Origin: an uncultured virus (IMG/VR IMGVR_UViG_3300005782_000717)
Lineage: Duplodnaviria > Heunggongvirae > Uroviricota > Caudoviricetes
Direction: 5' to 3' (one strand)
Length of the DNA stretch: 64,000 nt
IMG/VR virus record: IMGVR_UViG_3300005782_000717
The position numbers and the translations under genes are program-made. The notes under the pieces were generated by a model. That model made no database searches. It had not been told where the DNA came from and saw only the letters and a program-made list of their open reading frames with translations. Shown in pieces: positions 22,392 to 46,740 of the stretch; the stretch's first letter is position 1, and each line of letters begins with the position of its first letter.

Positions 22392-22964
22392 ATGACAGAA
22401 CAATTCAAACTTCAGCCAATTGATTTTCTAGTGAACATCAACAGAGGACAGGACCCCATGTCAGTTATTAAGCGGTGGGCGGTTGGTGAGTACTCCCACA
22501 TCTTTGCCTACCTGCCTCTATGGGTTCCTGTCCACGGGTTGCTATTGCAGCACCCCTTCCTTTACGAGAGTAGTGGCCGGGGTGTAGTAATCCAGAGCCT
22601 CTCTAACCGGTATGGTGAGAAAGTGGTAGTGATGAGGCTCAAGCCCGAGTTTCGGGACAAGATAGAGGTCATAGTCGCGGAGGCTATCAAGCTGGCCAGC
22701 GACCCCCAGTCTTACTACGACTACTACTGCATCCCTCTGAATATCGCCCCCCGGGTCTTCCACGATAAGTTCGGCATGCCGATACCAGTGAAGTATGACC
22801 GCAATGAATGGCATATCTGTAGCGAGGCTTGCGCTGAGCCATGCTGGCGAGCTAAAGTCCCAGTATTGCCTGAGAATATCGTCCCGCTGCCGGGTGATTT
22901 CGTTATTGACAGTCCCCCGCTGGAAGAGGTCAATCGGGGGATTTTGTCGCAGGATTGGGTCTAG
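22392..22964 (+). CDS. Permuted papain-like NlpC/P60 (YiiX-like) enzyme
   Basis: YSH before ICSE (His-then-Cys order), YDY motif. Confidence 0.75.
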   Translation: MTEQFKLQPIDFLVNINRGQDPMSVIKRWAVGEYSHIFAYLPLWVPVHGLLLQHPFLYESSGRGVVIQSLSNRYGEKVVVMRLKPEFRDKIEVIVAEAIKLASDPQSYYDYYCIPLNIAPRVFHDKFGMPIPVKYDRNEWHICSEACAEPCWRAKVPVLPENIVPLPGDFVIDSPPLEEVNRGILSQDWV

Positions 22965-23635
22965 CCCCTCCTGAATAACCCCCTGAAAATATCCAGCGCC
23001 GCCCCTAGCAGCCCCAGCAGGCAGCCGCTGCCGCTACCGCCACCGTTTTCCTCCGGCCCGTGCCCGTCATAGGCAACGAGGCTCTCCCTGTTTTTCCTCA
23101 TGTAGATAGCCGCCATAATCTTGCCCTGGGAGACCAGCTCTGAGGCCAGTCTGTCAAATGTCTCCCTGGCCTTGTCGAAGGCGTCTTCATGTGGAGTGCC
23201 CTCGATAAAGATATACATAAACCCGCAGTTGAAGGACTCCTTGAATTCCTTCAGCGCGTCGGTGGTGAAGCCCACCACCTCGGTGTACCCCCAGTATTTG
23301 CCTCCCTGGCGCCAGATCTCGGCTCCGAGCTTCCTGGCACTGAGGCAGGCCAGGGTATAGGTTTCCTTGTCGGCCAGCCAGTGGCAGTTGCTGAGGTCGA
23401 TGACCGGTCTCTCGTCCTGGCCGATGAGAGCATCCTCATCGCCATGGTCGTAGAAGATGAATACGTCCGCCCCTTTCCTCAGCTGTTCTTCCACCCTCTC
23501 CCTCACCGCCTCACCCTTCGCCAGCTCCACGACATCTATTTTAGCCTGCCGGCACCACTCCAGGATCTCTTCGGCAAAGGAAAGGGTATAATTCGTAGCA
23601 TCGTCAAAGCTGGGGCGTATCAGAATCGCCTTCAA
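22961..23635 (-). CDS. Clan CD (caspase/gingipain/CHAT-fold) cysteine protease
   Basis: FIFYDHG...YTLAC catalytic dyad pattern. Confidence 0.65.
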   Translation of the reverse strand: MKAILIRPSFDDATNYTLSFAEEILEWCRQAKIDVVELAKGEAVRERVEEQLRKGADVFIFYDHGDEDALIGQDERPVIDLSNCHWLADKETYTLACLSARKLGAEIWRQGGKYWGYTEVVGFTTDALKEFKESFNCGFMYIFIEGTPHEDAFDKARETFDRLASELVSQGKIMAAIYMRKNRESLVAYDGHGPEENGGGSGSGCLLGLLGAALDIFRGLFRRG

Positions 23636-23888
23636 TTTTCTTGCTCCCTTCGTAAAACATGTCGACCGCCAGGGCGTCTGCCCACTGCCTTATCTCCCTC
23701 CAGAGCTTCTTGTCTTTCTGCAGCCTCTCCCGGAGCTGGGCGGCAGTGAGACTTTCCCTCCCCAGGTAGAGCGTCCAGCCGGGGTCTCTCTCGGCTGTCC
23801 TCTCCAAGTAGCGCATCACGGCGTTTTTCAGTATCTTTTCGTCTCCCACCTAAAAACTCCTTTCTACTCTGGCGTTTTCTTTCTGAAC

Positions 23889-25058
23889 CTATGCTGCTGT
23901 GATGTTGATCATATCTGGCACCGCGGAAGCAACCGGGTCCAGCTCGACAGGTCTCCAGTTGACGGTTACCCATTTGCTACCTACCCGTTGCTGCCCATAC
24001 CCCGGGTCATAAACTAGGGACCAGGCTTTCAGCGCCACAGCACAAAGGTCGAAAGGTCCGGTGACTCCCTCAGCCGGGACATAAACCGAGGTTACGGCTT
24101 CGCCGCTACCATCATTGAAATAACACCCGCTAAGACCTCCCCATGCCCAGCAGGTGATCTCGACGCCAGGGTGGTTACTTTCGTAGTGCTCTTTTATTCC
24201 TCCTGTAATAATCTCCCCGCATAACACACACTGGTAAGCTCTAACTTGTAGGTCACCCCCCAGGTGTGCATCTTTTACTGTCGTTATCGACCCACCAGGT
24301 GGAATCTTGAGCCAGTAATCCGCTGCCCCTATCGTTCGTGGAACACCGTCAGGATCATAGATACCTAATACCATATTACTACCGACATTTTGCCCCCTTG
24401 CGTCCCAGGGTTTTTGCCAGTCGGTGGTATATGAGTAATCCCCCTCGATATACGCGGTGCTCAACAACAGGCGGAAATAGAGGAGCTTCTTGGCATCGAA
24501 GCCCCTCAGCACCCCGTTCACGTATTCAAGGGGTACCTCGGTCAGGTGCCCAAAAGCATAGTCTGGCTTGACCCAGATATCGTAGTCAAATGGGTTGGAG
24601 AAGGTGATATTGATAGTAAACGGGTCTCCCCAGTAGCCAAGGCCAAGGCTAGTCTCGTATTCATGCCTAGCGGTTGTCAGGTTGGTCGGGTTTACGGTTA
24701 TGCCGGTTATCTTAACCTGTGGAGCCTCAACAGCAGTGAAGCTCCCCGTCAGCTCATCCACTGAAACCTGGTATGTCCTGGCCTCGTGGGGAGTAGCCTC
24801 AAAGGAGACCGGCCTGCTTTCGCCGGGAGCCAGCTCTACTGTTTGCCCAGCCCCCTCGCCCTCTGCTATTAGCTTCTCAAGCGCAGTAACATCTAGCATA
24901 TTAATTACCCCATCACCATTTATATCGGCACGACGCCTGAACTCTATATCGCTGAGCGGTGTTGAGACAGACAAACCTGCTATGTATCTTTCAAGAAGAG
25001 TGAGGTCAAGAATGTTTATTATCCCATCATCGTTCAGGTCGCCGATTGAGTCTGCCAT
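23889..25058 (-). CDS. Dockerin-I plus Ig-like virion/surface protein
   Basis: GDLNDDGIINILD and ADINGDGVINMLD duplicated Ca-binding loops. Confidence 0.75.
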   Translation of the reverse strand: MADSIGDLNDDGIINILDLTLLERYIAGLSVSTPLSDIEFRRRADINGDGVINMLDVTALEKLIAEGEGAGQTVELAPGESRPVSFEATPHEARTYQVSVDELTGSFTAVEAPQVKITGITVNPTNLTTARHEYETSLGLGYWGDPFTINITFSNPFDYDIWVKPDYAFGHLTEVPLEYVNGVLRGFDAKKLLYFRLLLSTAYIEGDYSYTTDWQKPWDARGQNVGSNMVLGIYDPDGVPRTIGAADYWLKIPPGGSITTVKDAHLGGDLQVRAYQCVLCGEIITGGIKEHYESNHPGVEITCWAWGGLSGCYFNDGSGEAVTSVYVPAEGVTGPFDLCAVALKAWSLVYDPGYGQQRVGSKWVTVNWRPVELDPVASAVPDMINITAA

Positions 25059-25069
25059 AGTTCCACTCC

Positions 25070-25594
25070 TTAGGTAATTGTGCAGGTTATTGTCTTGCTT
25101 CCGGCCACCGTTCCATAGTTGGTGGCGGTGGCGCTAATTGTCACCTTCTCGCCAACCTGGACCTCAGTTGGTGAGATGACCAGATTACTGAGCCTGATAT
25201 CAGCGACAGGCATCGTGGTTGCAACAAAGCTTCCAGAGAGCCCATCAACGTTGACAGAGTAGGTCTTGGCTACATCGGGCGTAACCTCAAAGGATACTGA
25301 CTTTGACTCACCCGGAGCTAGGCTTACTGTCTGATCTGCCACGAAATCACCTCCTAGTTTCACTGTGTAGTCGCCAGCCTCGCTGCCGATATTGGTTACA
25401 GCGCAGGTTATCGTCACCACCTGCCCCGGGTTAACCTCGGTGGGGGAGATAACCAGGTCACTGACCACGAACTCGGCCCCCGGCGGCTTATACCACGGCC
25501 AAAATATTTTTAGAAACTCGGGCAAAGGCGGACCCTGGGAAGGCTCCTGGGGCATCCAGTCTTCAAGCTTATGTCCTAATATATCATCAGGCAT
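25070..25594 (-). CDS. CARDB/Ig-like domain protein with N-terminal GPPLP motif
   Basis: VSDLVISPTEV..G..VTI...VTNIG..., SLAPGESKSV. Confidence 0.75.
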   Translation of the reverse strand: MPDDILGHKLEDWMPQEPSQGPPLPEFLKIFWPWYKPPGAEFVVSDLVISPTEVNPGQVVTITCAVTNIGSEAGDYTVKLGGDFVADQTVSLAPGESKSVSFEVTPDVAKTYSVNVDGLSGSFVATTMPVADIRLSNLVISPTEVQVGEKVTISATATNYGTVAGSKTITCTIT

Positions 25595-25659
25595 TTTAAT
25601 CTACCCCAGTTTTGCCGAATATCTCCATTTCGTAATATCTTTTCCACAGTTTCACCCCA

Positions 25660-26349
25660 CTACACCGTAATCTGAATCGTGTAGGTAACCCGCAGCAGCT
25701 CGGTATTTGCCACGGCAACGCCGCCCGTTAAGTCACGGGCTATGCAGAAGGGGAAAACAGGACCCCAATCATTGGACACATAATGTCCTCCGGCTGCATT
25801 AATACCTACTTCCTCAACCGTGATAGCTCCCCCGCTGAGGTTGGTGAAATAACGCCTGACATCGAATGTGCCGTTTGGGTCAGCGAAGGCGATATTAACC
25901 AGTTCGCAGCCCCCATATTCCATCTCGCCACCAGCACGCCCGTTGTTGATAACAGCTCCGAGGGCAAAGTCGATGGGGGTTACAGCTACCGCTCCTGTTC
26001 CAATGACGATGCCGATGGTTTCACCCTGAATTTCAGCATTTTGTATTGTATCTGCTGCGGCGTTCTCTACGGACCCTGCATTTACAAGCTGCGTGGCTCC
26101 ACCAGGGACGGAGGCTATTTTTAGGTTGTCCTTGCGGAAACCTGTTGCCGTGGTACTGCTAGAATCTACATCCCGGGCTACGTTTGCAATGTCCTGCATC
26201 GAGTAAGGCGCCCCAGTTAGGATTTGGGCACTCCCCACATAGAGAAGTTCTATAAACTGAAGAAGAAAGCTCCTGGATGGCTGCTCCCTCCTTTCGAGCA
26301 ACCTGTGGTCTTTATCGAACCTTTCAAGAGTCAATTTTGCTGTTAACAT
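25660..26349 (-). CDS. Virion protein, paralogue of 26360-27019
   Basis: SFLLQFIELL, GIVIGTG, FTNLSGGAITVEEVG. Confidence 0.65.
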   Translation of the reverse strand: MLTAKLTLERFDKDHRLLERREQPSRSFLLQFIELLYVGSAQILTGAPYSMQDIANVARDVDSSSTTATGFRKDNLKIASVPGGATQLVNAGSVENAAADTIQNAEIQGETIGIVIGTGAVAVTPIDFALGAVINNGRAGGEMEYGGCELVNIAFADPNGTFDVRRYFTNLSGGAITVEEVGINAAGGHYVSNDWGPVFPFCIARDLTGGVAVANTELLRVTYTIQITV

Positions 26350-26359
26350 ATCAACCTCC

Positions 26360-27019
26360 TTAAGCCGTCGCCTGCGGACGATAATTTACCGTCAATGTTT
26401 GACCGTTGGGGACAAGGATACCCCCACCGATTACATCCCTGATAGCCAAAAATTCAAAAGTGGCCGTCCATACGCCCCCTTCTACATACAGGCCGATTTC
26501 GTTGACCGTGATTGGGCCCCCGCTGCCATTGGCAAAGTCTCTGGTTATGGTAAACTGGGAAGTTGTGGCGTCAGCAGCGGGCGCACCAAAGGCAACCCCC
26601 CCATACTGAAGCTGACCGCCGCCCACTCCATGGGCAATCGGGGTCCCCAGGACGAAGTCGTCGATAGTCGCTGCGACGGCTCCCGTACCGACAATGATGC
26701 CAAGGGTTACATCTCCAGCCCCAGCATCTGCTGCAAAAGCGTACGAAGAACAACATATACTTTGAAGTACATTTCCCGTATCTCTCACATCATAGGAGGT
26801 TGGCCTACCTAATGAGAGCGCCTGTATCCAGAACAGCTCCAGGAACTGCCTGACGAATGACTCCGACCGCATAGGACCGCGGTGCTCTGTGATTTTACCG
26901 TCCTTGTCTTTCACGGTAAGTTCGAGGGTGGCCCCGACCTCGCCAGGCAAAAGCAGCGGTTTAATCTTCTCGGGCTCGATTACATTAAGACTCGATTTTG
27001 CCTTGATTTCACTGTTCAT
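26360..27019 (-). CDS. Virion protein, paralogue of 25660-26349
   Basis: SFVRQFLELF, GIIVGTG, FANGSGGPITVNEIG. Confidence 0.65.
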   Translation of the reverse strand: MNSEIKAKSSLNVIEPEKIKPLLLPGEVGATLELTVKDKDGKITEHRGPMRSESFVRQFLELFWIQALSLGRPTSYDVRDTGNVLQSICCSSYAFAADAGAGDVTLGIIVGTGAVAATIDDFVLGTPIAHGVGGGQLQYGGVAFGAPAADATTSQFTITRDFANGSGGPITVNEIGLYVEGGVWTATFEFLAIRDVIGGGILVPNGQTLTVNYRPQATA

Positions 27020-27029
27020 GTCTACCTCC

Positions 27030-27950
27030 TTAAGCTATGGCTACCCATACCTGGGAGCCTAAAGGTGCAGTTACTTGGTTAACGAAGGCTGTTGTATCTG
27101 ACATCAGCCAGTATAGGTTCATGGCCTGGATAACTTTAAGCGCCCAGGCACCTTGTGGCGTATGGGTGATAGTTGTCATCCCAGGCGTATACTGCCACTC
27201 GTTGGAGCCATCGATTTCGTTGACCACAGGGACCCAGGCGCCTCCGTTCCAGAACTTCCACAAGTTTGTCCAGTTGCCGACTCCCGGAAGACCTAACATC
27301 ATCTGTATTTGCCAGAACTTGTAATTGGAGCCGACATAGACCTTGTCGCCAACGGCGGGGGTCAACCCGGGGTTCAGGTTGAGGTCGTTGGCAACCGGGC
27401 TCTGCGCCTGGGCGGTCTTGTCGGTCTGTACAGCCGCCGCAGTTTCCTCAACGAACCCGTCACAGAGGATACTAAGGCCAGACCTCGAGGTAAGCGTGGC
27501 AGCGATGGTTTGGTCGGGCCCGGCCAGTACAGCCTCCGCATCAGCTATAGCTAGGGAGCGGTCAAGTCTCCTGATAAAATCGGCGGGAGCATCCGCATGA
27601 GCCTGCACGTGCTCAGACGCAAGCGGCGCATTCTCATTGTGGGACTGGTCTACGGGGACTATCGCCTCGGCATGGGAAAGGTCTATCGGCACAGGCAGGT
27701 AGAATTCCAAGGCTGCACCGGGTTGCCAGGTCGGTATGTGGAGCGGCCCGGCCGAGGTGAGAACAAGGCCAATACCACCAGGGACGAGCTTAACGAGCAC
27801 GGAGGTATTGCCACGAACCGCCAGGTCACCTTTGGCCATACTTGCAGCTATCTCTTTAATGTTGGTTATGCCCTTAGCCTGCCAGTCCTTGTCGGCATCT
27901 ATGATAAGTTCAGACAGGCTGGTTATTCCACCCTTAACTAATAGACTCAC
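27030..27950 (-). CDS. Fibre/spike-like protein
   Basis: N-terminus LSELIIDADKDW shared with 27959-28210; fibre-like KGDL...G.VLTS repeat. Confidence 0.6.
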   Translation of the reverse strand: MSLLVKGGITSLSELIIDADKDWQAKGITNIKEIAASMAKGDLAVRGNTSVLVKLVPGGIGLVLTSAGPLHIPTWQPGAALEFYLPVPIDLSHAEAIVPVDQSHNENAPLASEHVQAHADAPADFIRRLDRSLAIADAEAVLAGPDQTIAATLTSRSGLSILCDGFVEETAAAVQTDKTAQAQSPVANDLNLNPGLTPAVGDKVYVGSNYKFWQIQMMLGLPGVGNWTNLWKFWNGGAWVPVVNEIDGSNEWQYTPGMTTITHTPQGAWALKVIQAMNLYWLMSDTTAFVNQVTAPLGSQVWVAIA

Positions 27951-27958
27951 TGCTCCTC

Positions 27959-28210
27959 CTATATTGACCAGGTTGGTAAGGCTCCCAGGCCTTGAGTGGT
28001 AAGACGAGTCCCTGAGGAGCCTGGTGTAATTTTGACAAGAGTACCATCACTTCTAACGAGCATATCCCCTTTTTGCATTAAACTAGCTAACTGAAGGAGA
28101 TTAGTTATTCCCTTCACTTGCCAGTCCTTATCAGCGTCTATGGTTAGCTCGGACAGCTTGGTAACACCTAGCTTAATGAGTAGAGCACCACCGTTCTTTA
28201 ATAGTCCCAT
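27959..28210 (-). CDS. Short fibre-like paralogue
   Basis: LSELTIDADKDWQVKGITN. Confidence 0.6.
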   Translation of the reverse strand: MGLLKNGGALLIKLGVTKLSELTIDADKDWQVKGITNLLQLASLMQKGDMLVRSDGTLVKITPGSSGTRLTTQGLGALPTWSI

Positions 28211-28236
28211 TACATTGCCTCTTTTTTATTTACTCC

Positions 28237-32460: not shown

Positions 32461-32464
32461 CTAT

Positions 32465-33028: not shown

Positions 33029-33041
33029 ATTTATCCTCCCT

Positions 33042-39729: not shown

Positions 39730-40065
39730 TTACATTCCCCTCCTTGATATTACTTCTGGGAGAACCCCAACAACGGGAGACGGGATAACCACCCTTTTCG
39801 TCCCTGTGGGTGCTGGTGTCACCGTGACCCCGGTGACGAAGGGCTGCAGCCCGAGTCCCCTTAGCCCTGCTGGCGCTTCAGGAATGGTGGGCGGCGCCGG
39901 GAGATCAGGGATTTCTATGGGGAAGTCGGGTATGGCCGGGATCTTACCGGCTGTATCCGCCAGCATGGTAGAAATCTTCGGTGCCCCCTCAGGTAGCTTG
40001 GCCTCTATCGCCGCCGGGAATTTTGTTGCATCCAGCAATAAGTCCTTTGGATTCTTGATAGGCAT
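39730..40065 (-). CDS. Pro-rich small protein
   Basis: RBS AGGAGGT; operon position. Confidence 0.6.
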   Translation of the reverse strand: MPIKNPKDLLLDATKFPAAIEAKLPEGAPKISTMLADTAGKIPAIPDFPIEIPDLPAPPTIPEAPAGLRGLGLQPFVTGVTVTPAPTGTKRVVIPSPVVGVLPEVISRRGM

Positions 40066-40079
40066 AACCTATACCTCCT

Positions 40080-40391
40080 TTAGCCGGTTACCCGTTTGAT
40101 TTGTGACTTGATACCCTCAAAGGTGTCCATGATTCCTGTTCCGACGCCTTCAGCCATGCCCAGCCCAGCCTTGACCGTCTGGCCAACGGCCTTCACCGCG
40201 ACATCAGCTATCACTGCCGGGTCATCGGGCATGCGGGCCTTAAAGTCTTCCATGTTGGCCTTTACCTCACCGGCATAGGTGTCAGCCACACTGGCCACAT
40301 TCTGGGCCACCCGGGCTGGGCCCTCGGCTAGCTCAATAGCGCCATCGGCTACACTATCGACCAGTTCCTTTGGATCAGGCAGTTTTACCAT
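40080..40391 (-). CDS. Amphipathic helical small protein
   Basis: RBS GGAGGA; Ala/Val-rich helices. Confidence 0.55.
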   Translation of the reverse strand: MVKLPDPKELVDSVADGAIELAEGPARVAQNVASVADTYAGEVKANMEDFKARMPDDPAVIADVAVKAVGQTVKAGLGMAEGVGTGIMDTFEGIKSQIKRVTG

Positions 40392-40510
40392 CTCATCCTC
40401 CCTTGGGGGGGGGAGCAACCTTCTCAAAAAGGCAGGGGGCGCACCCTCACCTTCTCTCGAAGGTTGCGCCCCCGTTTTATTTTCATTCCCCGCCAGGGGA
40501 GGCGGTGCAA

Positions 40511-40638
40511 CTCTGGAATAACGGAGGCGGGTAGCCCCAAGATTACTCCAGGGTTGCTACCCGCCCCTTGTATCTATATAATGTAATAAGTTTTCGCTTT
40601 TGTCAAGTCCTCCTTACAGGCAGGATTATCGGTGGCGG
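40511..40638 (-). promoter_or_regulatory. Promoter plus structured leader, copy 1 of a 128-bp duplication
   Basis: TTGACA-17-CATTAT, then GGGGCGGGTAGC...GCTACCCGCC hairpin; near-identical to 59893-60020. Confidence 0.7.
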
Positions 40639-41283
40639 CGGAAGTATCCGGAAAGGCAAGGCTAATCCCGGTCTTGCCCTTATCCTGGCCCCCGGGTCGC
40701 CCAGCAGCACAGCATTATCACGGTTAAACTCCAAGCAGGCCTTTATCAGCTCATCATCTTCGGCTAAGGCATTCCTTGTATAGCCTTCGAGCTCAATGTC
40801 CAAGGCCTCCCTAGCCGTCTTGCCATCGAGCAGGGCGTTTAGCCCGTCAATTACCGGCATTAGGCAGGTGGCGGCCATTGCGTCGGCCCAGGGGGTTGAG
40901 GCTAAATCAGCATCGCATACCCAGAGGTAGTCATCGGTATAACCGAGGTAGGCAACACAGCCATTGGCAACAAGGTCAGGGCCGAGCTCAACTCCAGTCT
41001 GGCATGACAGGAGCTTTACCACCTTGCCTTCTACTTCCCTCGGGTCATACTGGCCGACCTGCAGAATTATAACCTCATTCTGGCCAGTAAAGATGGCCTC
41101 TTCGCCATGACCCATGCCGATGATTACGTCGGACCTTGGAGCTGATAGCTGAAAGGGCAGCCTACGGTCAATCATCCCATAGAGGGGAGCTGGCCCCAGA
41201 CGAGGCAAAATATATCTCAGGAGGAACCCCGACGCGCTCCTGGTGGGCAAATCGAAGTCGGCCATGCAAATTGTTGCCGGCAT
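40603..41283 (-). CDS. Clan CD (caspase-fold) cysteine protease, paralogue of 22961-23635
   Basis: IIGMGHG...VKLLSC; YLGY; RDNAVLLGD. Confidence 0.65.
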   Translation of the reverse strand: MPATICMADFDLPTRSASGFLLRYILPRLGPAPLYGMIDRRLPFQLSAPRSDVIIGMGHGEEAIFTGQNEVIILQVGQYDPREVEGKVVKLLSCQTGVELGPDLVANGCVAYLGYTDDYLWVCDADLASTPWADAMAATCLMPVIDGLNALLDGKTAREALDIELEGYTRNALAEDDELIKACLEFNRDNAVLLGDPGARIRARPGLALPFRILPPPPIILPVRRT

Positions 41284-41555: not shown

Positions 41556-44459
41556 TTAATGAGGCACGATTGTATTAATCGAAAACCGGAAGTCGTATCT
41601 CTCCCCCTGCTCAGGGTTGAATATCGGGCTGGTTCGCGAATAGGACCAGCCCTTGTCGGGATGCCACAGGGAGGCGTTGATACTCCCGCCCGGCATTACA
41701 TTATCGAATCTGATGGCGCTCGAGATGCCAACCCCAACGTCGGAGCCTATCCAGCTCCCGGTCCCGGGGTCGTAGTAATAAGCCGCCCAGTGGGTCGCAT
41801 CTGTCCATCCCGAGGGTAGGTTGGTAACATACACGTAAAAGTCGACAGGCGCTTTGACTGTTACAACATTATATTTCGTCGGCGTAAATACATCCGGCAG
41901 AGCGCCGGTGATCTTGGCGTAGAGGTCATAGACGCCGGCGCTTATGGCCGTGGATATGTATATCCGCGCCGTTGCGGTATAGGTCCTCCAGCTCGATGTT
42001 TCAGGCACAGAAATGCTCTCAGTGTCATAAACTATCTCATCGAACCCGAAGGCGCCGACATTGCCGAGGGCCGCCCGGAGGGTGCCGGAGTTAGCCGGCC
42101 CCTGGTACTCGAAAGAGCATATGACCTGGCAGTAATCGCCGGTCTGAACCTGGCTGTCATAGGAGGAGATCTTGAAGTTCCTTATCTCGGGGTTAGGAAC
42201 CGCGGCTACTACCTCGACCACGTTATACAAAAATGGCCCGATCAAGCTCGGAGCTCCGCCACCGATTTTGGCATACAGATCGTAAAAGCCGGCGCTCATG
42301 CCTGAGGTAGGTATAGACAAGGTGAAGGAATATTTGGTCCAGGTCATCGACTGCGGTATGGAGACGTAGTCCTGGTCGTATTTCACCTCATCGAACCCGA
42401 AAGCCCCGACATTGCCGAGGGCCGCCCGGAGGGTGCCACTGCAGGCCTTTCCTATATACTCAAACTCGACTGTGACAGCACAGTAGTCGCCCATATCCAC
42501 TATTCTGTCATAGTCGATAATCTGGAGATTCCTGACGTCCTGGCTCGGCACTCCAACGGTAATGTTAATCACGCTCTCAAGGATCGGGCTGATGATATCA
42601 GGCGTTACCCCATCGATCTTGGCGTAGAGGTCATAGGGGCTGCCGGCGGGGTCTATGGCGGAAGTGATGGAAATATCGACATAGCCAGTGTATGTCTGCC
42701 AGGAATCAGTTTCGGGTATTGATATTGTCCTTGAGCCGTGCAAGATTTCGTCGAAGACAGCCCAGCCACTGTTACCGATGGCGGCATATAGACTCTTACT
42801 AACACTCGGTCCCTGATAGTCAAATTCAACCATAACCCTACACTTGTCCCCTATCTCGAGCGGGCTGTCATAAGATGTGATCCGCAGGTTTCTAAATTCC
42901 GGCGTTATTGGAGGTCCGGCTACTGTGATGACGCTTTCAAGGACCGGGCTGATAACCCCGTCAACCTTGGCATAGAGGTCGTAGGGGCTGCCAGCCGGGT
43001 CAATAGCCAATGTTATCGGGATAGACACATCGCCCTCATACTCCGTCGGCGTCTGCGACTCCGGTATATTGATGGTCTTTGACCCATAGAGTATCTCGTC
43101 AAAGCCCGCCCAGCCATAGTTGCCGATCGCTGCGTAGAGGGTCTTGCTGATTGCCGGACCCTGGTAGGTAAAGCGCACCTGGACCTGACAGCTGCCCCCT
43201 GCATCAACCGGGGAGTCATAATTGATAATCTGCAGGTCGCTGAGCTGTGGCTCCTCAACTCCCACAATCTCAATAATATCATCTTTATAGTCGTAGAGGT
43301 CAGCGCCGGGAATATCAGTGAGCTTGGAGTAGAGGTCATAATCAACCCCGGGACTAATGGCTGTGGCAATTGGAATAGTTACCTCAACATCATAGCCCAC
43401 CCAATCCTCGTTAGGGCCAAATGCCCCAAGGCTAACACTCTTAGCTAGTATCTCGTCAAAGCCGGCCCATCCCCTGGTGCCTATAGCGCTATGGATATCG
43501 GCAGTAGTATATCGGGGGCCTTTGTATTCAAAGTGGTGGGTAATAATCAGACTATCACCGATACTTAAAACAGCAGGGGCTGGTGTCCATCCAGTAATGC
43601 CGAAGTTTCTAAATTCCCCTCCAACGGGCACGCCAGTAATGGTTATGACGTCCTCCAGGAACTCGGTGAAGACATCGCCGCCGGTGATGCCCATGATCTT
43701 GCAGTATAGGCCGTAGTCACTCCCCGGGGAGATGGCCGAGGTTATAATGATATCGACGGACTCTTCAAACGGCTCCCAGTCGGCGGTCTGCGGCACGGAG
43801 AAGCTCTGCTCAGTGAAAAGGATCTCGTCATGGGGATCTATAACCCCCCTGTGCCAGATGGCGGCGTGGAACTTCCCGGTCACCGCCGGCCCCTTGTGGT
43901 TGTAGACGAGGTTCACACGGCACCGATCGCCAACGTCGAGCTCCAAAACGCCGGGTGGGGTGACCGGGGCACCGCCGTTCTTGCTGTAGGAGGCGATGCT
44001 GAAATCTTGAAACAGCTCTTCCTGTGGCGGCACCTCGCCGGCAACTATAAAGGTGGTCTCAAAGGTGGCTGCTGCCGGCGCCGGCGGGAGCACGATGGAA
44101 TCAATGGGGATAGTAGGTCCGGGGTACACCCGGACGCTCAGTGAAAACTCCCCCTCTCTCTGAAAACCGTTTGCAAAGGTTATCTCAAAGTTGCCGCCTA
44201 TGGCGATATCAGTCGCCCTTACCTCAGGGGAGCCCCAGATGGGTATTATTTCCTCCCACCAGGTTTCAGGATATGCGACAGTTGCAATTACCCAGAGAGG
44301 GCCGAAAAAGGGGATCTTCAGCAGGTCGATCTTACCCTTCACGGTGAAGGGCTCGTTCATTGTTGGAGTTTCGGGGGTAGAGATTATCTCTTTTAAGGAG
44401 AAAAGTAAATCCCCGCCACCGAACTCCGGTGCTTCAAAGAGTTTAGCTGGTCTTTGCAT
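41556..44459 (-). CDS. Large Ig-like repeat protein (about five ~120-aa repeats)
   Basis: F.Y.GP...LYAAIGN.G...FDEI...YDLYAKI repeats. Confidence 0.8.
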   Translation of the reverse strand: MQRPAKLFEAPEFGGGDLLFSLKEIISTPETPTMNEPFTVKGKIDLLKIPFFGPLWVIATVAYPETWWEEIIPIWGSPEVRATDIAIGGNFEITFANGFQREGEFSLSVRVYPGPTIPIDSIVLPPAPAAATFETTFIVAGEVPPQEELFQDFSIASYSKNGGAPVTPPGVLELDVGDRCRVNLVYNHKGPAVTGKFHAAIWHRGVIDPHDEILFTEQSFSVPQTADWEPFEESVDIIITSAISPGSDYGLYCKIMGITGGDVFTEFLEDVITITGVPVGGEFRNFGITGWTPAPAVLSIGDSLIITHHFEYKGPRYTTADIHSAIGTRGWAGFDEILAKSVSLGAFGPNEDWVGYDVEVTIPIATAISPGVDYDLYSKLTDIPGADLYDYKDDIIEIVGVEEPQLSDLQIINYDSPVDAGGSCQVQVRFTYQGPAISKTLYAAIGNYGWAGFDEILYGSKTINIPESQTPTEYEGDVSIPITLAIDPAGSPYDLYAKVDGVISPVLESVITVAGPPITPEFRNLRITSYDSPLEIGDKCRVMVEFDYQGPSVSKSLYAAIGNSGWAVFDEILHGSRTISIPETDSWQTYTGYVDISITSAIDPAGSPYDLYAKIDGVTPDIISPILESVINITVGVPSQDVRNLQIIDYDRIVDMGDYCAVTVEFEYIGKACSGTLRAALGNVGAFGFDEVKYDQDYVSIPQSMTWTKYSFTLSIPTSGMSAGFYDLYAKIGGGAPSLIGPFLYNVVEVVAAVPNPEIRNFKISSYDSQVQTGDYCQVICSFEYQGPANSGTLRAALGNVGAFGFDEIVYDTESISVPETSSWRTYTATARIYISTAISAGVYDLYAKITGALPDVFTPTKYNVVTVKAPVDFYVYVTNLPSGWTDATHWAAYYYDPGTGSWIGSDVGVGISSAIRFDNVMPGGSINASLWHPDKGWSYSRTSPIFNPEQGERYDFRFSINTIVPH

Positions 44460-44512
44460 AGCTAGCCTCCTTAAGCCAGTTTAACCCCAAATTATCAGGT
44501 TTGGCAAGCCTC

Positions 44513-46740
44513 TTACAACCCCAGGCTGTCTACAATATCCTGCACGCCCTTGCCGAGTCCCAAGGGCAGGTGTTTTATCACTCCCTCACCCCAACTTCTG
44601 GGGATAGGTACCCCAGGCCAGTGCTCGCGCATCCACTTCGAGACTGGATCCGGCCACTTCACCCCTCGTGGTAGAGGCGGCCCCTCGGTGACCCTATTTA
44701 GACCGAGCTGCTCTACCCTTGGTAGCTTCGGCAGTGTTATCTCATCTTTCATCCCACAGCCACCTGCGCCCTATCGGTCAGAATCTCGAAGGGGACTATC
44801 CCCACCCTTATTTCTACCACTGCCGGCTCTAAAGTGTTAAGGGTGAGTCTCCAGTCATCAACGCTGAACGTGCCGATGTGGTCCGTCTTCTCGATATAGT
44901 CAGCAGAAGAATTATATTCAGCCCTGACATATATCCCATAGAAAAGCGGCAGCGGCAAGCCATTCCTAACCGCAAGCAGGATATGCCTCTTATCGTCGGC
45001 TTCCTCAATCTTGAAGTCCCCGTAGAAGCGCAGTATCGGAAGGGGGGGGCTGGCCAGATATTCGGCAAGTTTTTCACCGAAGCTCTTGGGCCTGTCGGAT
45101 TCCTTCAGCAGGATCATCTCTCCACAATCCCGGCTAAAAATTTTGGCATCGGTGGGAGGAATTTACTCTTCAACAAACGCGGGGCCAGCACCGCATTTAT
45201 CTGGCCGCGCAACTTTGCCCCACCTACTGCCTCGGGCAAGGGTGGCGCCAGAATATTGACCAGCTTGGTGAATTGAGCTTCAAAATTAGGCCCAGGTTTA
45301 GGCACAAATAAGGGAAGCTCCACTCCAGCTAGCTGCACTGGCCCGATCTTCCGGGTAGATAAAAGTTTTAAGCTGTCTGCCATTTTTTACGGCAATCTGC
45401 GCCCGGCACCCCTCATCTTCACAATCGCCCATCTAGGCAGTGGCGGCTGGAACTTCCCGTCAGGACCTCTAGGGGAAGCTGGTAAATTTGCCCAGATTAT
45501 CTCTGGGAGTGTTTCCATTACCGGGCCAAGTCTCTTTCTCACCTCCGGTGGAAACTCACCAGCACCATAGATTTCCTGGTGCCTCTTCAACCTTTCTTCC
45601 TCTGTTCTCGGAACTCCGAATGGCATAATTCACCTCCTTATTTGCACAGCATGGCATGGCTAATTCTCCTTTATATCAAACCCATTTTCCTTAATGGGCT
45701 ATCTGGGTGGTCAGGTTCAACTTTACGACCATCGGGTAGAGTGATCACTCCTTCAAAACACATGTGCTTGAGGTCTCGCTCCGATGGTATTACTAGGGCA
45801 CCTTTTGCATTTAATATTGAGTATTTTGATGTAATAGAACTGATAGGAACGCATACAGGAACCTCTTGACCTTCAGAGGCAGCCTTAACCGCTTTTTCTC
45901 CGTATTCCTCGACAGCTTTCTTATAAGCATCTTCCTCCAGGAGGTCAACGGATGTTCCCCAAATTCCATCACCATACTCGTACGAGTAAACTTGGAATTT
46001 TGGGTCTTTATACACGACATCTATTTCACCCGTACGGTATTTACTCTTTCGAAGAACAGCTTGTATTGTATTGCAGCCACATGTTTCAGCCATTTCATCG
46101 CCTCGTCAATGATTGTAATAACTCTGGCTTCTCATACATAAACCTCGGAAGAGGGGGATAGGGCGGTGGCATGGGCAGTAAATCGCTAACCTCCAGCTCC
46201 GGCCCCGCCTTCTTAGCGAAGTCGTATGCGCTGTAGGTTATCACGCCGGCTAGTCCAGCTACTAGGAAAAGTAATAAGCCTGTCTCCGGGTCAAGCATCT
46301 CATTCCTCCCAAAAAAGAACGGGGCGCAACTTTCGATGCGCCCCCTTGGTTATTCTACTTTTAGTTTACTGCCAAACCAGTGCCTTGGCAAGCTTTAGCC
46401 GTCAGTGGTTGACCACTCACTCCTCCTTCAAGCTTGTTAAAAAGCCCATCAGCTCCTGCGGTGCACTTTTCATTATCTTCTCAACCCTCTTCAGCACTTT
46501 CTCCACTTTCTCCAGCTTGTCCATAGGTAGCGAGTTTATTTCTCTAATGAGTCCGATAACCTTGTCAAGCTCAGGTGCGCTCCGGGAAACCCTCTCAGCT
46601 ATAACCAGCACTTCCTTAATCAGCTTCAGACGCCTTTCGTCAGGCAGCTTATCGAGGGATTCAACCATTTTGGAAAGAGGAGGAAGCCCGAGTTTTCGTT
46701 CAGCCTCTCTGGCCGCTTCAACAAGTTTATCTAAAACCAT
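44513..46740 (-). other. Cluster of seven small ORFs, most of them Pro-rich (44513-44752, 44749-45117, 45114-45383, 45387-45626, 45671-46093, 46095-46298, 46417-46740)
   Basis: Tight coupling, RBSs, recurring PPLP motif. Confidence 0.6.

What the first reader, a model, noticed from the sequence alone, without database searches (positions are those of the whole stretch)
22961..46740. Virion operon without tailed-phage hallmarks joined to a lambdoid-style replication arm
Seen: about 24 kb of beta-rich, paralogous, adhesin-like genes with no recognisable terminase, portal, HK97 capsid, tail tube or tape measure, whereas the early arm is CI/Cro, RecT and initiator/DnaC. Inference: a possibly undescribed non-tailed (jelly-roll or membrane-containing) temperate virus lineage; capsid candidates are 38952-39728 and 33926-34552. 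Caveat: hallmark genes could lie outside the window.
Basis: inference. Interest (0 to 1): 0.7.

Follow-up and report, generated by a model that had tools for sequence, protein, structure and literature searches.

The report
Hallmark-free jelly-roll module in Dehalococcoidia element
A phage-like mobile element of sediment Dehalococcoidia carries a large, widely conserved structural operon built around jelly-roll proteins and lacking every recognisable tailed-phage gene, so it may be a new kind of non-tailed bacterial virus, though this is not yet proven.

Summary
None of the 37 minus-strand ORFs at 22961-46740 matches a terminase, portal, HK97 capsid, tube or tape measure (Pfam, PHROGs; NCBIfam on a subset). 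They include 10 paralogous pairs and dockerin, CARDB and LamG domains. The plus-strand arm is integrase, cI/Cro, RecT, exonuclease and DnaC-like.

New findings:
- The operon runs on to 52702 and starts with an Mrp/ParA ATPase, a UbiA-like prenyltransferase, a type III PKS and an SDR.
- Its core (33-52.7 kb) is syntenic in many of 149 metagenome relatives and 9 MAG loci (7 Dehalococcoidales/Dehalococcoidia).
- Two 41-43 kb MAG contigs keep the module with different replication arms and no hallmark genes.
- The capsid candidate 38952-39728 folds confidently (pLDDT 92) as a jelly-roll. Its nearest structure is the SPV1 capsid protein, at background level (Z about 7).
- The three 155-aa paralogues next to it are jelly-rolls nearest to tailed-phage cement proteins (Z 9.2).
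- No adhesin-like protein has a signal peptide.

Caveats: the parent contig is 129,992 bases, so about 66 kb is unseen. No packaging ATPase was found, and particle formation is untested.

Verdict: probably an undescribed non-tailed virus-like lineage (about 0.45). A tailed phage with hallmarks elsewhere (about 0.22) remains the main rival.

The parts
1336..2334 (-). Tyrosine integrase
   Evidence: Pfam Phage_integrase 2.3e-31; phrog_1 integrase 3e-49
3063..3842 (.). Divergent cI-like HTH repressor (3063-3437, minus) and Cro-like HTH protein (3627-3842, plus)
   Evidence: HTH_3 2.2e-8, phrog_8/phrog_4 repressor families; HTH_31 4.1e-5. Homologues of both sit at one end of G001:C45
7741..14381 (+). 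Replication and recombination genes: MCM-like AAA+ (7741-8703), RecT (9118-10287), N6/N4 DNA methylase (10379-11389), exonuclease (11370-12767), unassigned 304-aa protein (12770-13684, initiator by position only), DnaC-like loader (13620-14381)
   Evidence: Pfam MCM 2.4e-11, RecT 3.2e-27, N6_N4_Mtase 2e-30, IstB_IS21 4.8e-10; phrog_298 exonuclease 5e-34; phrog_50 DnaC-like 3.8e-36
16020..16531 (.). Nine iteron-like repeats with the core GAAGCCGAG in a stretch without a plus-strand ORF; candidate replication origin (inference)
   Evidence: the repeat finder family D2, 9 copies; ORF list
22961..33521 (-). Distal, poorly conserved part of the operon with adhesin/fibre-like proteins: His-Gly/Cys paralogue (22961-23635), N-terminal dockerin protein (23889-25058), CARDB protein (25070-25594), paralogue pair 25660-27019, 27030-28210, 28237-29424, two LamG proteins (29421-30326, 30731-31420), Gly/Thr-rich 31417-32460
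   Evidence: Pfam hits; paralogues. Most of these have homologues in 0-5 of the 80 metagenome loci; 25070-25594 and 33042-33521 reach 12 and 20, in the loci mapped mostly through short PPLP-motif matches. Relatives carry beta-helix/NosD tail-spike-like, GLUG and InlB-repeat proteins at this position. No signal-peptide-like N-termini
33587..34552 (-).
   Evidence: Homologues in 22 and 26 of 80 loci; alignment A5 has 71% mean column identity. No match in the PDB profile search, the phage collection or the Atlas
34674..37238 (-). Duplicated unit: two CxxCxxCC (PF03692) proteins (34674-35423, 36444-37238) flanking two 153/159-aa paralogues (35428-36397)
   Evidence: Pfam 3e-5 each, above the curated cut-off; BLASTP 2.5e-22 and 2.6e-53; present in only 8 loci and 1 locus
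37325..38848 (-). Three 155-157-aa jelly-roll paralogues with an N-terminal helix (1-5 copies in relatives)
   Evidence: BLASTP 36-41% identity; AF2 on alignment A4 gives pLDDT 80.6. Nearest structures are KHP40/KHP30 cement proteins Z 9.2/8.6, BPP-1 cement Z 8.3 and Ena1B Z 8.2. Copy numbers
38952..39728 (-). 258-aa jelly-roll protein (N-terminal hairpin and helices, then an eight-stranded sandwich); shell-protein candidate
   Evidence: 54 relatives among 1.84 billion representatives; AF2 pLDDT 91.9, pTM 0.89. Best match is the SPV1 capsid protein: Foldseek prob 0.98, Z 6.7 and 7.1. HCIV-1 and HHIV-2 capsid proteins score Z about 5
39730..40427 (-). Conserved 111-aa Pro-rich and 115-aa proteins directly upstream of the jelly-roll gene (scaffold-like by position; inference)
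   Evidence: Homologues in 70 and 53 of 80 loci; no family hits
40511..40638 (-). Promoter-leader repeat, copy 1: TTGACA, 17 nt, TATATA, then a GC-rich hairpin, upstream of the jelly-roll sub-operon
   Evidence: 128-nt direct repeat 94% identical to 59893-60020; alignment with G002:C48 shows the hexamers conserved
40603..41283 (-). 226-aa protein with invariant His59-Gly60 and Cys94; putative Cys-His peptidase (inference from the motif)
   Evidence: Alignment A7 of 28 sequences. One member hits Peptidase_C25 at only E 0.3; no PDB sequence match. The G002:C48 homologue carries a LAGLIDADG-type insertion just after the HG motif
41556..44459 (-). 967-aa protein of tandem beta-rich repeats of about 117 aa; length varies among relatives
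   Evidence: Translation; repeat families D8/D9 at 348-357-nt spacing; homologues of varying length in 20 loci
44513..46740 (-). Seven small proteins, five of them with a PPLP motif; 46095-46298 has the only clear N-terminal TM helix in the block
   Evidence: PPLP occurs 7 times in 7 late-block proteins against a shuffle mean of 0.28 (maximum 3 in 500) and 0 in the early arm; hydropathy
46784..52702 (-). Conserved proximal part of the same operon: Mrp/ParA-type ATPase (51641-52702), 146-aa protein, 224-aa polytopic membrane protein (50439-51113), two small ORFs, UbiA/MenA-like prenyltransferase (48770-49660), type III PKS (47725-48768), SDR reductase/epimerase (46784-47791)
   Evidence: Pfam ParA/NUBPL 7e-35, Epimerase 8e-27, Chal_sti_synt 3e-11, UbiA 2e-5 (below cut-off). 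NCBIfam DpgA-like 2e-36, MenA-like 1.6e-9 and MrpORP 7e-31, all below cut-offs. Syntenic in relatives, with the PKS sometimes missing
53310..59314 (+). Divergent plus-strand block: 492-aa coiled-coil protein with internal repeats, 684-aa protein split by an intein (about 55126-56415), 498-aa Cys-rich protein and three small proteins; accessory to the family
   Evidence: LAGLIDADG_3 4e-14 and Intein_splicing 3.4e-7; boundaries; an intein-free allele in one contig of run X5. Partly present in G002:C48 and L065, absent from G001:C45
59893..60020 (-). Promoter-leader repeat, copy 2
   Evidence: contigs of run X5 skip about 146-163 bases here, so this copy is absent from those contigs

Best explanation
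The window lies inside a temperate, phage-like mobile element of sediment Dehalococcoidales. I think its roughly 30 kb minus-strand operon (52702 down to 22961) builds a virus-like particle that is not of the tailed (HK97/portal/terminase) type.

Shown:
- An integrase and a cI/Cro pair.
- A replication and recombination arm (AAA+ ATPase, RecT, exonuclease, DnaC-like loader, iteron-like repeats) that converges on the operon.
- An operon core that is syntenic in many relatives even though their replication arms differ.
- Two core proteins that are jelly-rolls.
- Adhesin-like proteins without signal peptides.

Inferred:
- Transcription starts in the divergent region at 52.7-53.3 kb and again at the internal sigma-70-like promoter near 40.5 kb.
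- The 258-aa jelly-roll forms the shell and the 155-aa jelly-roll paralogues stabilise or complete it.
- The 115-aa and 111-aa proteins act as scaffold, and the His/Cys 226-aa protein acts as a maturation enzyme.
- The 208-aa and 108-aa proteins join the shell to a variable set of receptor-binding proteins (LamG, CARDB, dockerin; beta-helix spikes in relatives).
- The PPLP motif shared by seven small or adaptor proteins docks them to a common partner.
- The Mrp/ParA ATPase, prenyltransferase, PKS and SDR at the head of the operon make or modify a lipid-linked compound needed for assembly or for changing the host surface.

How DNA gets inside the particle is unknown.
For: No tailed-phage hallmark genes:
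- None in 92 window ORFs.
- None in 66 ORFs of two related MAG contigs of 41.4 and 43.1 kb that hold the whole module plus both flanks.
- None in 58 representatives of the 107 large flank ORFs of relatives that have no window counterpart.
- Positive control: Pfam finds TerL, portal and HK97 capsid in other clusters of the same MAGs.

Structure:
- The 258-aa protein is a confident jelly-roll (pLDDT 91.9).
- Both structure aligners (Foldseek by probability, VIA-align by Z) put the SPV1 capsid protein first, and HCIV-1 and HHIV-2 capsid proteins are also listed.
- The adjacent 155-aa family is a jelly-roll too.

Conservation:
- 149 metagenome stretches and 9 MAG loci encode the 258-aa family.
- The core order from the Mrp ATPase to the 108-aa protein is kept, while the distal genes vary as in host-recognition modules.
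- The family is sporadic in genomes, found in 1 of 401 sampled class genomes, and that one is G001 itself.

Other:
- None of the adhesin-like proteins has a signal-peptide-like N-terminus (crude hydropathy test).
- Replication arms differ among relatives (RecT/DnaC here, Rep plus HerA-like ATPase in G001:C45, primase-helicase in G002:C48) while the operon stays the same.
- Precedent: a 2026 preprint reports IME1, a Dehalococcoides virus lineage without tailed hallmarks (10.64898/2026.09.15.751708; I read the abstract and sections 6, 10 and 11).
Against: - About 66 kb of the 129,992-base parent contig is unseen, and the window shows no element end.
- Structural matches are weak. Z 6.7-7.1 for the 258-aa protein is within the tool's stated background, and jelly-rolls are also common in fibres, lectins and pili.
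- The 155-aa family is closest to cement proteins that decorate HK97 capsids of tailed phages (Z 9.2, 8.6, 8.3).
- No packaging ATPase of any known kind is in the window.
- The block has only one small TM protein.
- The nearest Atlas clusters are labelled mostly viral, with Uroviricota the commonest phylum.
- Relatives' distal proteins hit PHROG tail-spike families, and one hits a 'neck protein' family weakly.
- Relatives carry ArdC and DUF2958, which by my recollection are typical of conjugative elements.
- There is no evidence of particles: no virome or RNA library is among the runs that hold the DNA.
Confidence: 0.45

Rival explanations
1. It is a tailed phage after all. Terminase, portal and HK97 capsid lie in the unseen part of the 130 kb contig (or are too divergent to recognise). 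The block is the decoration, neck, tail-fibre and accessory region of a large Caudoviricetes genome, and the 155-aa proteins are capsid cement.
For: - The parent contig is 129,992 bases.
- The 155-aa jelly-rolls match the cement proteins of KHP40, KHP30 and BPP-1 and capsid-entry chains of Pam1, Carin1 and GP4 (Z 9.2 to 7.3).
- Relatives have tail-spike-like beta-helix proteins.
- The LamG protein is 29% identical to one in a podovirus-like cluster of a related MAG.
- The nearest Atlas clusters are mostly labelled viral, commonest phylum Uroviricota.
Against: - G001:C45 (41.4 kb) holds the repressor/Cro end, a replication arm, the whole operon and about 11 kb beyond it with three recombinases, yet it has no hallmark gene and no conserved ORF of portal or TerL size.
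- G002:C48 (43.1 kb) is the same and reaches a DctP-family gene, which may be host DNA.
- The gene next to the 'cement' genes, where the capsid gene would sit by my recollection of those phages, is a jelly-roll, and no HK97 protein appears in its fold lists.
- Hallmarks are easy to detect in other phage clusters of these hosts.
Confidence: 0.22
2. It is a non-viral integrative (conjugative or mobilisable) element. The operon is cargo that builds a cell-associated structure: an adhesive fibre or coat of jelly-roll subunits (Ena- or TasA-like) together with surface glycan or lipid modification.
For: - Ena pilins are among the best fold matches for both jelly-roll models (Z 8.2 and 6.2).
- G001:C45 carries ArdC, DUF2958 and a HerA/FtsK-type ATPase next to a Rep initiator, and DUF2958 is in the window.
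- The operon holds prenyltransferase, PKS and SDR genes, and one relative adds glycosyltransferase, methyltransferase and radical-SAM genes.
- Dockerin, CARDB and Ig-like repeats are typical of surface proteins.
Against: - None of the adhesin-like proteins has a signal peptide or membrane anchor, and the dockerin sits at the very N-terminus.
- No relaxase, T4SS or FtsK/TraB gene is in the window.
- cI/Cro, RecT, exonuclease and a DnaC-like loader form a phage-type early arm.
- The HerA-like ATPase is absent from the window and from G002:C48, and it lies among replication genes.
- A conserved core with a hypervariable distal end is the pattern of virion modules.
Confidence: 0.15
3. It is a capsid-less satellite or hijacker. 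The element supplies decoration (cement-like jelly-rolls), adaptors and receptor-binding proteins, but is packaged into HK97 heads made by the podovirus-like TerL-portal-capsid cluster that most genomes of the host class carry on the chromosome.
For: - A TerL, SPP1-type portal, SU10-type capsid and adaptor cluster lies on other contigs of 3 of the 5 module-bearing MAGs.
- Its capsid gene is in 223 of 401 sampled genomes of the class (the tally includes the unpublished genome G249).
- The element's 155-aa proteins resemble HK97 cement proteins.
- A LamG protein is shared at 29% identity.
Against: - Presence in 3 of 5 MAGs equals the 56% base rate, so there is no specific association.
- The element is at least 41 kb, which is large for a satellite.
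- This reading leaves the strongly conserved 258-aa jelly-roll, the 208-aa protein and the putative protease unexplained.
- No small-terminase or packaging-redirection gene was recognised.
Confidence: 0.08

Closest known systems
Portogloboviridae (Sulfolobus polyhedral virus 1, SPV1)
   Same: The SPV1 capsid chains (6oj0) are the top structural match of the 258-aa protein in three searches: Foldseek prob 0.98, VIA Z 6.7 over 131 residues and Z 7.1 over 126 residues. Here too, no terminase or FtsK-type packaging ATPase was found. That SPV1 lacks a recognisable packaging ATPase is my recollection.
   Different: The Z values are at background level and identity is 10%. The host is an archaeon. 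By recollection the SPV1 genome is about 20 kb, against at least 41 kb here. No other gene is shared. This element has a lambdoid-style early arm.
Viruses with two vertical single-jelly-roll capsid proteins (P23-77, SH1, HHIV-2, HCIV-1)
   Same: Two neighbouring jelly-roll gene families, one larger (258 aa) and one smaller (155 aa). HCIV-1 and HHIV-2 capsid proteins are listed for the 258-aa model (Z 5.2, 5.1) and P23-77 VP16 for the 155-aa model (Z 6.2).
   Different: Those viruses encode an A32/FtsK-type packaging ATPase and several membrane proteins next to the capsid genes (recalled); neither is seen here. The matches are weak. The small jelly-roll occurs in 1-5 paralogues here. No profile-level relation exists between the two families.
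Jelly-roll cement proteins of tailed-phage capsids (KHP40/KHP30, BPP-1, Pam1, Carin1, GP4)
   Same: These are the best structural matches of the 155-aa family: Z 9.2 (111 of 124 residues), 8.6, 8.3, 7.7, 7.7 and 7.3. The size is similar, and the gene lies next to a putative shell gene.
   Different: The partner gene here is a jelly-roll, with no HK97 protein in its fold lists. There are three paralogues instead of one. Identity is 7-14%. No HK97 capsid was found in the window or on the relatives' contigs.
IME1 elements of Dehalococcoides (bioRxiv 10.64898/2026.09.15.751708)
   Same: Dehalococcoidia host, integrative, lambda-like repressor, tyrosine and serine recombinases in relatives, a CARDB protein, and no tailed-phage hallmarks. 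The authors propose IME1 as a new virus lineage (abstract and sections 6, 10 and 11 read).
   Different: IME1 is 21-28 kb, with a pI-like ATPase and SSV1 VP1-like membrane proteins, and is proposed to be filamentous or budding. The window has no Zot/pI-like hit and only one small TM protein in the block. It is built around jelly-roll proteins and a biosynthetic cassette.
Lambdoid temperate phages (early arm only)
   Same: Integrase, divergent cI/Cro, a RecT plus exonuclease pair, a DnaC-like loader and a DNA methylase.
   Different: Late genes are on the opposite strand and converge on the early arm, and no lambdoid head or tail gene is present. Relatives swap the whole replication arm.

Membership tests
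Caudoviricetes (tailed phages) | Large terminase subunit (ATPase plus nuclease) | tested here: inconclusive
   No Pfam/PHROG terminase hit in 92 window ORFs and no Walker A motif in any late-block ORF that I take as a gene. None on G002:C48. On G001:C45 the only such hit is a HerA/DUF87 ATPase next to a Rep gene, which matches phrog_2666 ('terminase large subunit', 2e-19). Terminase_6N and TerL_ATPase: 0 of 5 MAGs. About 66 kb of the parent contig is unseen.
Caudoviricetes (tailed phages) | Portal protein | tested here: inconclusive
   No hit in the window or on the two MAG contigs. Portals found in the MAGs lie on other contigs within ordinary phage clusters. The unseen part of the contig remains.
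Caudoviricetes (tailed phages) | HK97-fold major capsid protein | tested here: inconclusive
   No sequence-family hit in the window. The two folded candidates are jelly-rolls. Other ORFs were not folded, and 66 kb is unseen.
Caudoviricetes (tailed phages) | Tail tube, sheath or tape measure | tested here: inconclusive
   No family hit. The only very long ORF (967 aa) is a beta-repeat protein, not a helical tape measure. Only receptor-binding-type domains are present.
Single-jelly-roll capsid viruses (SPV1; P23-77/SH1 group) | Jelly-roll major capsid protein(s) encoded by adjacent genes | tested here: inconclusive
   Adjacent 258-aa and 155-aa jelly-roll genes are shown. The capsid-protein matches are at or near background: SPV1 Z 6.7-7.1; HCIV-1, HHIV-2 and VP16 Z 5-6. 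A capsid role is not shown.
Single- and double-jelly-roll capsid viruses (PRD1-like, P23-77/SH1 group) | A32/FtsK-HerA-type genome-packaging ATPase | tested here: not met
   None in the window by Pfam, PHROGs or Walker A scan. The HerA-like ATPase of G001:C45 has no homologue in the window or in loci L001-L080.
PRD1-like viruses (Tectiviridae, Corticoviridae and relatives) | Double jelly-roll capsid protein and several small virion membrane proteins | tested here: inconclusive
   No family hit. Both folded proteins are single jelly-rolls. One small TM protein lies in the block. Most ORFs were not folded.
IME1 (Dehalococcoides non-tailed virus lineage) | pI/Zot-like ATPase followed by small membrane proteins, in a 21-28 kb element | tested here: not met
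   No Zot or pI-like Pfam/PHROG hit among 92 ORFs. One small TM protein. Relatives of this element span at least 41 kb. Direct sequence comparison with IME1 was not possible.
Conjugative or actinomycete-type integrative elements | Relaxase/T4SS, or an FtsK/TraB-type DNA translocase | tested here: not met
   None in the window. One relative has a HerA/DUF87 ATPase plus ArdC; the window has only DUF2958.
Jelly-roll capsid cement proteins of tailed phages | Small trimeric jelly-roll that binds an HK97 capsid lattice | tested here: inconclusive
   The fold match to KHP40/KHP30/BPP-1 cement proteins (Z 9.2-8.3) is only about 1-2 units above unrelated jelly-rolls.

The most novel reading that the evidence does not exclude
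This is the morphogenetic module of an undescribed lineage of temperate, non-tailed dsDNA viruses of Dehalococcoidia, with genomes of at least 41 kb. The shell would be built from single-jelly-roll proteins (the 258-aa protein plus one to five 155-aa paralogues) and matured by a Cys-His enzyme. It would be filled without a terminase, a portal or an FtsK-type ATPase. The module would also include a ParA/Mrp ATPase and its own prenyltransferase, polyketide synthase and reductase pathway.
Probability: 0.3. Interest if true: 0.9.

Novelty: new variant of a known kind. Interest (0 to 1): 0.66.

Why it matters
By my recollection, nearly all known temperate dsDNA viruses of bacteria with genomes above 30 kb are tailed, and non-tailed jelly-roll viruses of bacteria are small and use an FtsK-type packaging ATPase. 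A widespread 40+ kb element that pairs a lambdoid-style early arm with a jelly-roll-based, hallmark-free structural operon would add a new virion architecture to bacteria. It would do so in Dehalococcoidia, common in marine and subsurface sediments by my recollection, whose viruses are barely known. Viral detection pipelines that require hallmark genes, such as the one described in the cold-seep virome preprint, could miss such elements. The conserved lipid or polyketide cassette and the shared PPLP docking motif are testable leads on how such a particle is assembled. If the tailed-phage rival proves right, the module still defines about 20 unannotated, strongly conserved phage gene families.

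Tried and rejected
Searches that found nothing
- Relatives of the 258-aa protein in IMG/VR: none. Deposited phages: no tblastn match for the 258-, 208- or 155-aa proteins.
- The 226-aa protein gave one weak hit (25% identity, E 9e-4) in a Methanofastidiosa-associated Caudoviricetes record, in a non-structural region. It was uninformative.
- An exact match to the window's end in viral contigs: none.
- PDB profile searches with four family alignments gave nothing below E 0.08. PHROGs on 41 members of the 258-aa family: no family.
- hhalign found no relation between the 258-aa family and the 155-aa or 208-aa families.
- No HK97-fold protein appears in any of the fold-search lists shown for either model.
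- Atlas search for the 208-aa protein: best score 0.77, below the lead threshold.
- Source-given names for core proteins: only 'hypothetical protein'.

Tools or data not available
- No whole genome is held for the window. The metagenome loci are not in held records.
- No earlier scan notes exist for this genome.

Ideas considered and dropped
- The 128-nt direct repeat as att sites of a nested 19 kb element. Rejected: it contains a sigma-70-type promoter plus hairpin, lies inside the conserved module, is conserved in G002:C48, and its second copy is missing from contigs of run X5.
- The 967-aa ORF as a tape measure. Rejected on reading it.
- The HerA-like ATPase of G001:C45 as the family's packaging ATPase. 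Rejected as a family feature: it has no homologue in the window or in L001-L080 and lies beside a Rep initiator in a replication arm that differs in each relative.
- The HK97 capsid hits in 4 of 5 MAGs as the missing head genes. Rejected: they lie on other contigs in ordinary TerL-portal-capsid clusters, and the capsid is in 56% of sampled class genomes.
- The clan-CD peptidase assignment of the 226-aa protein rests on the His-Gly/Cys pattern only. The sole family hit is Peptidase_C25 at E 0.3 in 1 of 28 members.

Element ends, expression and particles
- The MAG contigs have no terminal overlap or long-range repeats, so neither circularity nor att sites could be shown.
- Sequencing runs: no RNA holder is listed and no virome library is among the holders.
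- Laying contigs of runs X1, X2, X3 and X5 on 40300-60200 gave no joint that marks an element end. One X5 joint, 40483 to 52847, has only 25 letters on its shorter side, and I treat it as unreliable.

Literature
- Three full-text searches (Dehalococcoidia + prophage + capsid; Chloroflexota + jelly-roll + virus; Dehalococcoidia + virus + major capsid protein) found only the IME1 preprint as relevant. I read passages of the cold-seep virome preprint; they do not describe this element.

Full report
**What is in the window**

ORF listing and profile scans show three blocks.

- Block 1 (1.3-23 kb) is a phage-type early arm.
  - Integration and control: tyrosine integrase (1336-2334, minus), a divergent cI-like repressor (3063-3437) and a Cro-like protein (3627-3842).
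  - RNA gene: tRNA-Met (7022-7097).
  - Replication and recombination: an MCM-like AAA+ ATPase, RecT, a DNA methylase, an exonuclease and a DnaC-like loader.
  - Other genes: a ParB-like protein, a DNA polymerase beta-thumb protein and a DnaJ-domain protein.
  - Likely origin: nine iteron-like repeats at 16020-16531 lie in a stretch without a plus-strand ORF.
- Block 2 is one run of minus-strand ORFs from 52702 down to 22961. It converges on block 1.
- Block 3 (53.3-59.3 kb, plus strand) diverges from block 2. It is followed by small genes of mixed orientation.

**Checking the observation**

The finding's range holds 37 minus-strand ORFs. None matches a terminase, portal, HK97 capsid, tube, sheath or tape measure in PHROGs or Pfam, and NCBIfam on a subset of 24 ORFs agrees. 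The domains found are dockerin, CARDB, two LamG and two CxxCxxCC.

Paralogy is real, with ten BLASTP pairs. The 967-aa ORF is a tandem beta-repeat protein. No late-block ORF that I take as a gene has a canonical Walker A motif.

**Relatives and host**

- The capsid candidate at 38952-39728 has 54 relatives among 1.84 billion representative proteins. It has none in IMG/VR or in deposited phages.
- A metagenome scan found 149 stretches encoding relatives, of which 80 were kept, at 57-83% identity.
- A scan of species genomes found 9 loci: six titled Dehalococcoidales, one Dehalococcoidia, one Chloroflexota and one Deltaproteobacteria.
- In 401 sampled genomes of G001's class, only G001 itself has the family. 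So it is sporadic, as mobile elements are.

**Synteny**

tblastn of the window's proteins against the loci shows a conserved order in the direction of transcription:

1. Mrp/ParA ATPase, a 146-aa protein and a polytopic membrane protein.
2. UbiA-like prenyltransferase, a type III PKS (sometimes missing) and an SDR.
3. A 107-aa protein, then a 122-aa protein.
4. The beta-repeat protein, of variable length.
5. An 89-aa protein, then the 226-aa protein.
6. The 115-aa and 111-aa proteins.
7. The 258-aa protein.
8. One to five 155-aa paralogues.
9. The 208-aa and 108-aa proteins.

After that come poorly conserved genes. The 'cellular-looking' genes at 46.8-52.7 kb therefore belong to the module. 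The variable distal end behaves like a host-recognition region.

**Whole-contig views of two relatives**

I fetched two MAG contigs completely.

- G001:C45 (41.4 kb) has the cI/Cro pair at one end. It then has a different early arm with an integrase, a peptide deformylase, a Rep initiator and a 565-aa HerA/DUF87 ATPase. The whole operon follows, and then about 11 kb with a 508-aa protein, DUF2958, an ArdC-like protein, a second tyrosine recombinase and a serine recombinase.
- G002:C48 (43.1 kb) has the operon and homologues of part of block 3. Its early arm has a primase-polymerase/D5 helicase, HNH nucleases and a PAPS reductase, and the contig ends in a DctP-family gene.

I scanned 66 ORFs from these contigs that lack a window counterpart, and none is a hallmark gene. 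The HerA-like ATPase does hit a PHROG labelled 'terminase large subunit'. It has no homologue in the window or in loci L001-L080, and one search shows no counterpart for it in the window. It sits beside the Rep gene, in an arm that differs in each relative, so I read it as part of that relative's replication module. That reading is an inference.

I also took the 392 ORFs of at least 180 aa in loci L001-L089. Of these, 107 had no window homologue after overlap filtering, and I scanned 58 representatives of them. None is a terminase, portal or capsid. The hits are beta-helix/NosD tail-spike-like, GLUG and InlB-repeat proteins, glycosyl- and methyltransferases, radical-SAM enzymes, TnpB-type transposases and one weak 'neck protein' hit.

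**A control and a false lead**

Searching the five module-bearing MAGs for hallmark families gave:

| Family | MAGs with a match |
|---|---|
| Terminase_6N | 0 of 5 |
| TerL_ATPase | 0 of 5 |
| Phage_portal | 1 of 5 |
| Phage_capsid | 4 of 5 |

The capsid hits lie on other contigs. One is a canonical prophage (G002:C10). The others belong to a cluster of TerL nuclease domain, SPP1-type portal, scaffold-like protein, SU10/GP7-type capsid, LamG protein and SU10 adaptor, and in G005 this cluster lies next to housekeeping genes. That capsid gene occurs in 223 of 401 sampled genomes of the class (the tally includes the unpublished genome G249). Its presence in 3 of the 5 MAGs therefore matches the base rate. 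The result shows that hallmark genes of phages of this host lineage are easy to detect, and it gives no evidence of linkage to the module.

**Folds**

- The 258-aa protein, with a 41-sequence alignment, gave a confident model (pLDDT 91.9, pTM 0.89). It has an N-terminal hairpin and helices followed by an eight-stranded sandwich.
  - Foldseek against the PDB gave weak jelly-roll matches. The SPV1 capsid protein had the highest probability (0.98, TM 0.49 on the target).
  - The Foldseek-independent search put SPV1 first at Z 6.7 (131 residues, rmsd 4.4).
  - The second look gave Z 7.1, with HCIV-1 and HHIV-2 capsid proteins at Z 5.2 and 5.1.
  - The tool states that a best Z of 7-8 is typical background, so I claim the fold and not homology.
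- The 155-aa family, with 48 sequences, gave pLDDT 80.6. It is an N-terminal helix plus a jelly-roll.
  - Its best matches are the cement proteins of Helicobacter phages KHP40 and KHP30 (Z 9.2, 8.6) and of Bordetella phage BPP-1 (Z 8.3), and Ena1B (Z 8.2).
  - Lower matches are Pam1, Carin1, IBDV VP2 and P23-77 VP16.
  - This is slightly above background, and it is the strongest single point in favour of a tailed-phage reading.
- The two families, and the 208-aa family, show no profile-level relation to each other.

**Other features bearing on mechanism**

- **No signal peptides.** None of the adhesin-like proteins has a signal-peptide-like N-terminus, and the dockerin starts at residue 6. In the 37-ORF block only the 67-aa protein at 46095-46298 has a clear N-terminal TM helix. 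The UbiA-like protein and the 224-aa protein upstream are polytopic (this is a crude hydropathy test, not a trained predictor). This argues for assembly in the cytoplasm and against a Sec-exported surface structure. It also gives little support to a membrane-rich virion.
- **Putative enzyme.** The 226-aa family has invariant His59-Gly60 and Cys94, shared with the distant paralogue at 22961-23635. In G002:C48 a LAGLIDADG-type insertion follows the HG motif. The pattern suggests a Cys-His peptidase, but family searches do not confirm it.
- **Shared motif.** A PPLP motif, often GPPLP followed by a Trp-rich stretch, occurs once in each of seven late-block proteins. The shuffle expectation is 0.28, and the early arm has none.
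- **Internal promoter.** The 128-nt repeat at 40511-40638 and 59893-60020 carries TTGACA, 17 nt, TATATA and then a hairpin on the minus strand. It is conserved downstream of the 226-aa gene in G002:C48. It is an internal promoter-leader for the jelly-roll sub-operon, and contigs of run X5 lack the second copy.

**What could not be settled**

- The window's proteins are on record from a contig of 129,992 bases. I could not fetch it, so about 66 kb next to the window is unseen.
- The window shows no element end. Genes to the left of the integrase look element-like, and no att-like repeat was found.
- The runs that hold the DNA are marine-sediment metagenomes, with related strains in subsurface and cold-seep runs. 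No virome or RNA library is listed.

**Weighing the explanations**

The tailed-phage rival needs the hallmark genes to sit in the unseen 66 kb. Yet two relatives that keep the whole operon and both flanks on 41-43 kb contigs have none, and they have no conserved ORF of portal or terminase size. The cement-like fold, the tail-spike-like distal proteins and the 130 kb contig keep this rival at about 0.22.

The non-viral rival explains ArdC, DUF2958, the Ena-like fold matches and the biosynthetic genes. It conflicts with the absence of export signals and with the phage-type early arm (about 0.15). The satellite idea is consistent with the cement-like fold but has no specific support (about 0.08).

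I put about 0.45 on a particle-forming, non-tailed virus-like element whose shell uses the jelly-roll proteins. Within that, the roles assigned to individual genes are inferences from order, conservation and fold.

**Comparison with known systems and novelty**

The early arm works like a lambdoid one. The structural module fits no described family that I could test:

- It has no double jelly-roll hit and no FtsK-type ATPase (PRD1-like, P23-77/SH1-like).
- It has no pI-like ATPase (IME1, inoviruses).
- It has no HK97, portal or terminase set (Caudoviricetes).

The nearest analogy is SPV1-type or two-jelly-roll capsids, at fold level only. Three literature searches found only IME1 as a Dehalococcoidia lineage without tailed hallmarks, and IME1 differs in size and content. 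I rate the finding as a new variant of a known kind, namely a temperate virus-like mobile element, with a real chance that it is a new virus lineage.

Noticed in passing
window 62830-62936 (minus), upstream of 62361-62666: A SAM riboswitch (RF00162, 53.5 bits, gathering score 44.4) sits directly upstream of a 101-aa DUF2958 gene inside the mobile element. That is an unusual gene to put under SAM control.
   Followed up: no
window 54847-56901 (intein about 55126-56415): The 684-aa protein is split by a LAGLIDADG intein, and splicing would create a CxxC motif at the junction. One contig of run X5 joins 55109 to 56421 (skips 1311 bases, 21 other letters between), which is an intein-free allele in a related population.
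   Followed up: partly
G002:C48 14215-16038 (locus L093): The homologue of the 226-aa His/Cys protein is 607 aa because of an insertion of about 1.1 kb with a weak LAGLIDADG_3 hit placed just after the conserved HG motif. It is probably a second intein in this module.
   Followed up: partly
window 25070-25594, 33042-33521, 44513-45626, 46095-46298: A PPLP motif (often GPPLP, then R or E, then a Trp-rich stretch) occurs once in each of seven different late-block proteins, at N- or C-terminal positions. The shuffle mean is 0.28 and the early arm has none. It may be a shared docking peptide.
   Followed up: partly
G001:C48 about 28-43 kb (L099); G005:C122 (L101), G005:C91 (L100), G003:C179 (L102): A compact cluster of TerL, SPP1-type portal, scaffold-like protein, SU10/GP7-type capsid, LamG and SU10 adaptor. 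Its capsid gene is in 223 of 401 sampled genomes of the class, mostly single copy at 60-87% identity and sometimes next to housekeeping genes. It could be a domesticated, GTA-like head-tail cluster of this class. The tally includes the unpublished genome G249.
   Followed up: partly
window 14513-18575: Five copies of a 35-nt motif ending in a Shine-Dalgarno-like GGAGG lie just upstream of early-arm genes. They are probably a shared early promoter or translation-initiation element.
   Followed up: no
window 5295-5683: Seven copies of a 36-nt period lie inside the minus-strand ORF 5261-5776, which would encode a 12-residue tandem repeat protein. It has no family hit.
   Followed up: no
locus L033 13358-19059; L017 744-2081; L026 240-1487; L077 279-1415: Relatives insert extra genes into the module: a methyltransferase-glycosyltransferase fusion, a radical-SAM/SPASM methyltransferase, a B12-binding radical-SAM enzyme next to the SDR, and TnpB/IS605-type transposases.
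   Followed up: no
window 46784-52702: The NCBIfam matches of the cassette genes (DpgA-like PKS, MenA-like prenyltransferase, SDR) all fall below the curated cut-offs, so the product is unknown. The set could make a prenylated aromatic polyketide or a polyprenyl-linked sugar donor.
   Followed up: partly
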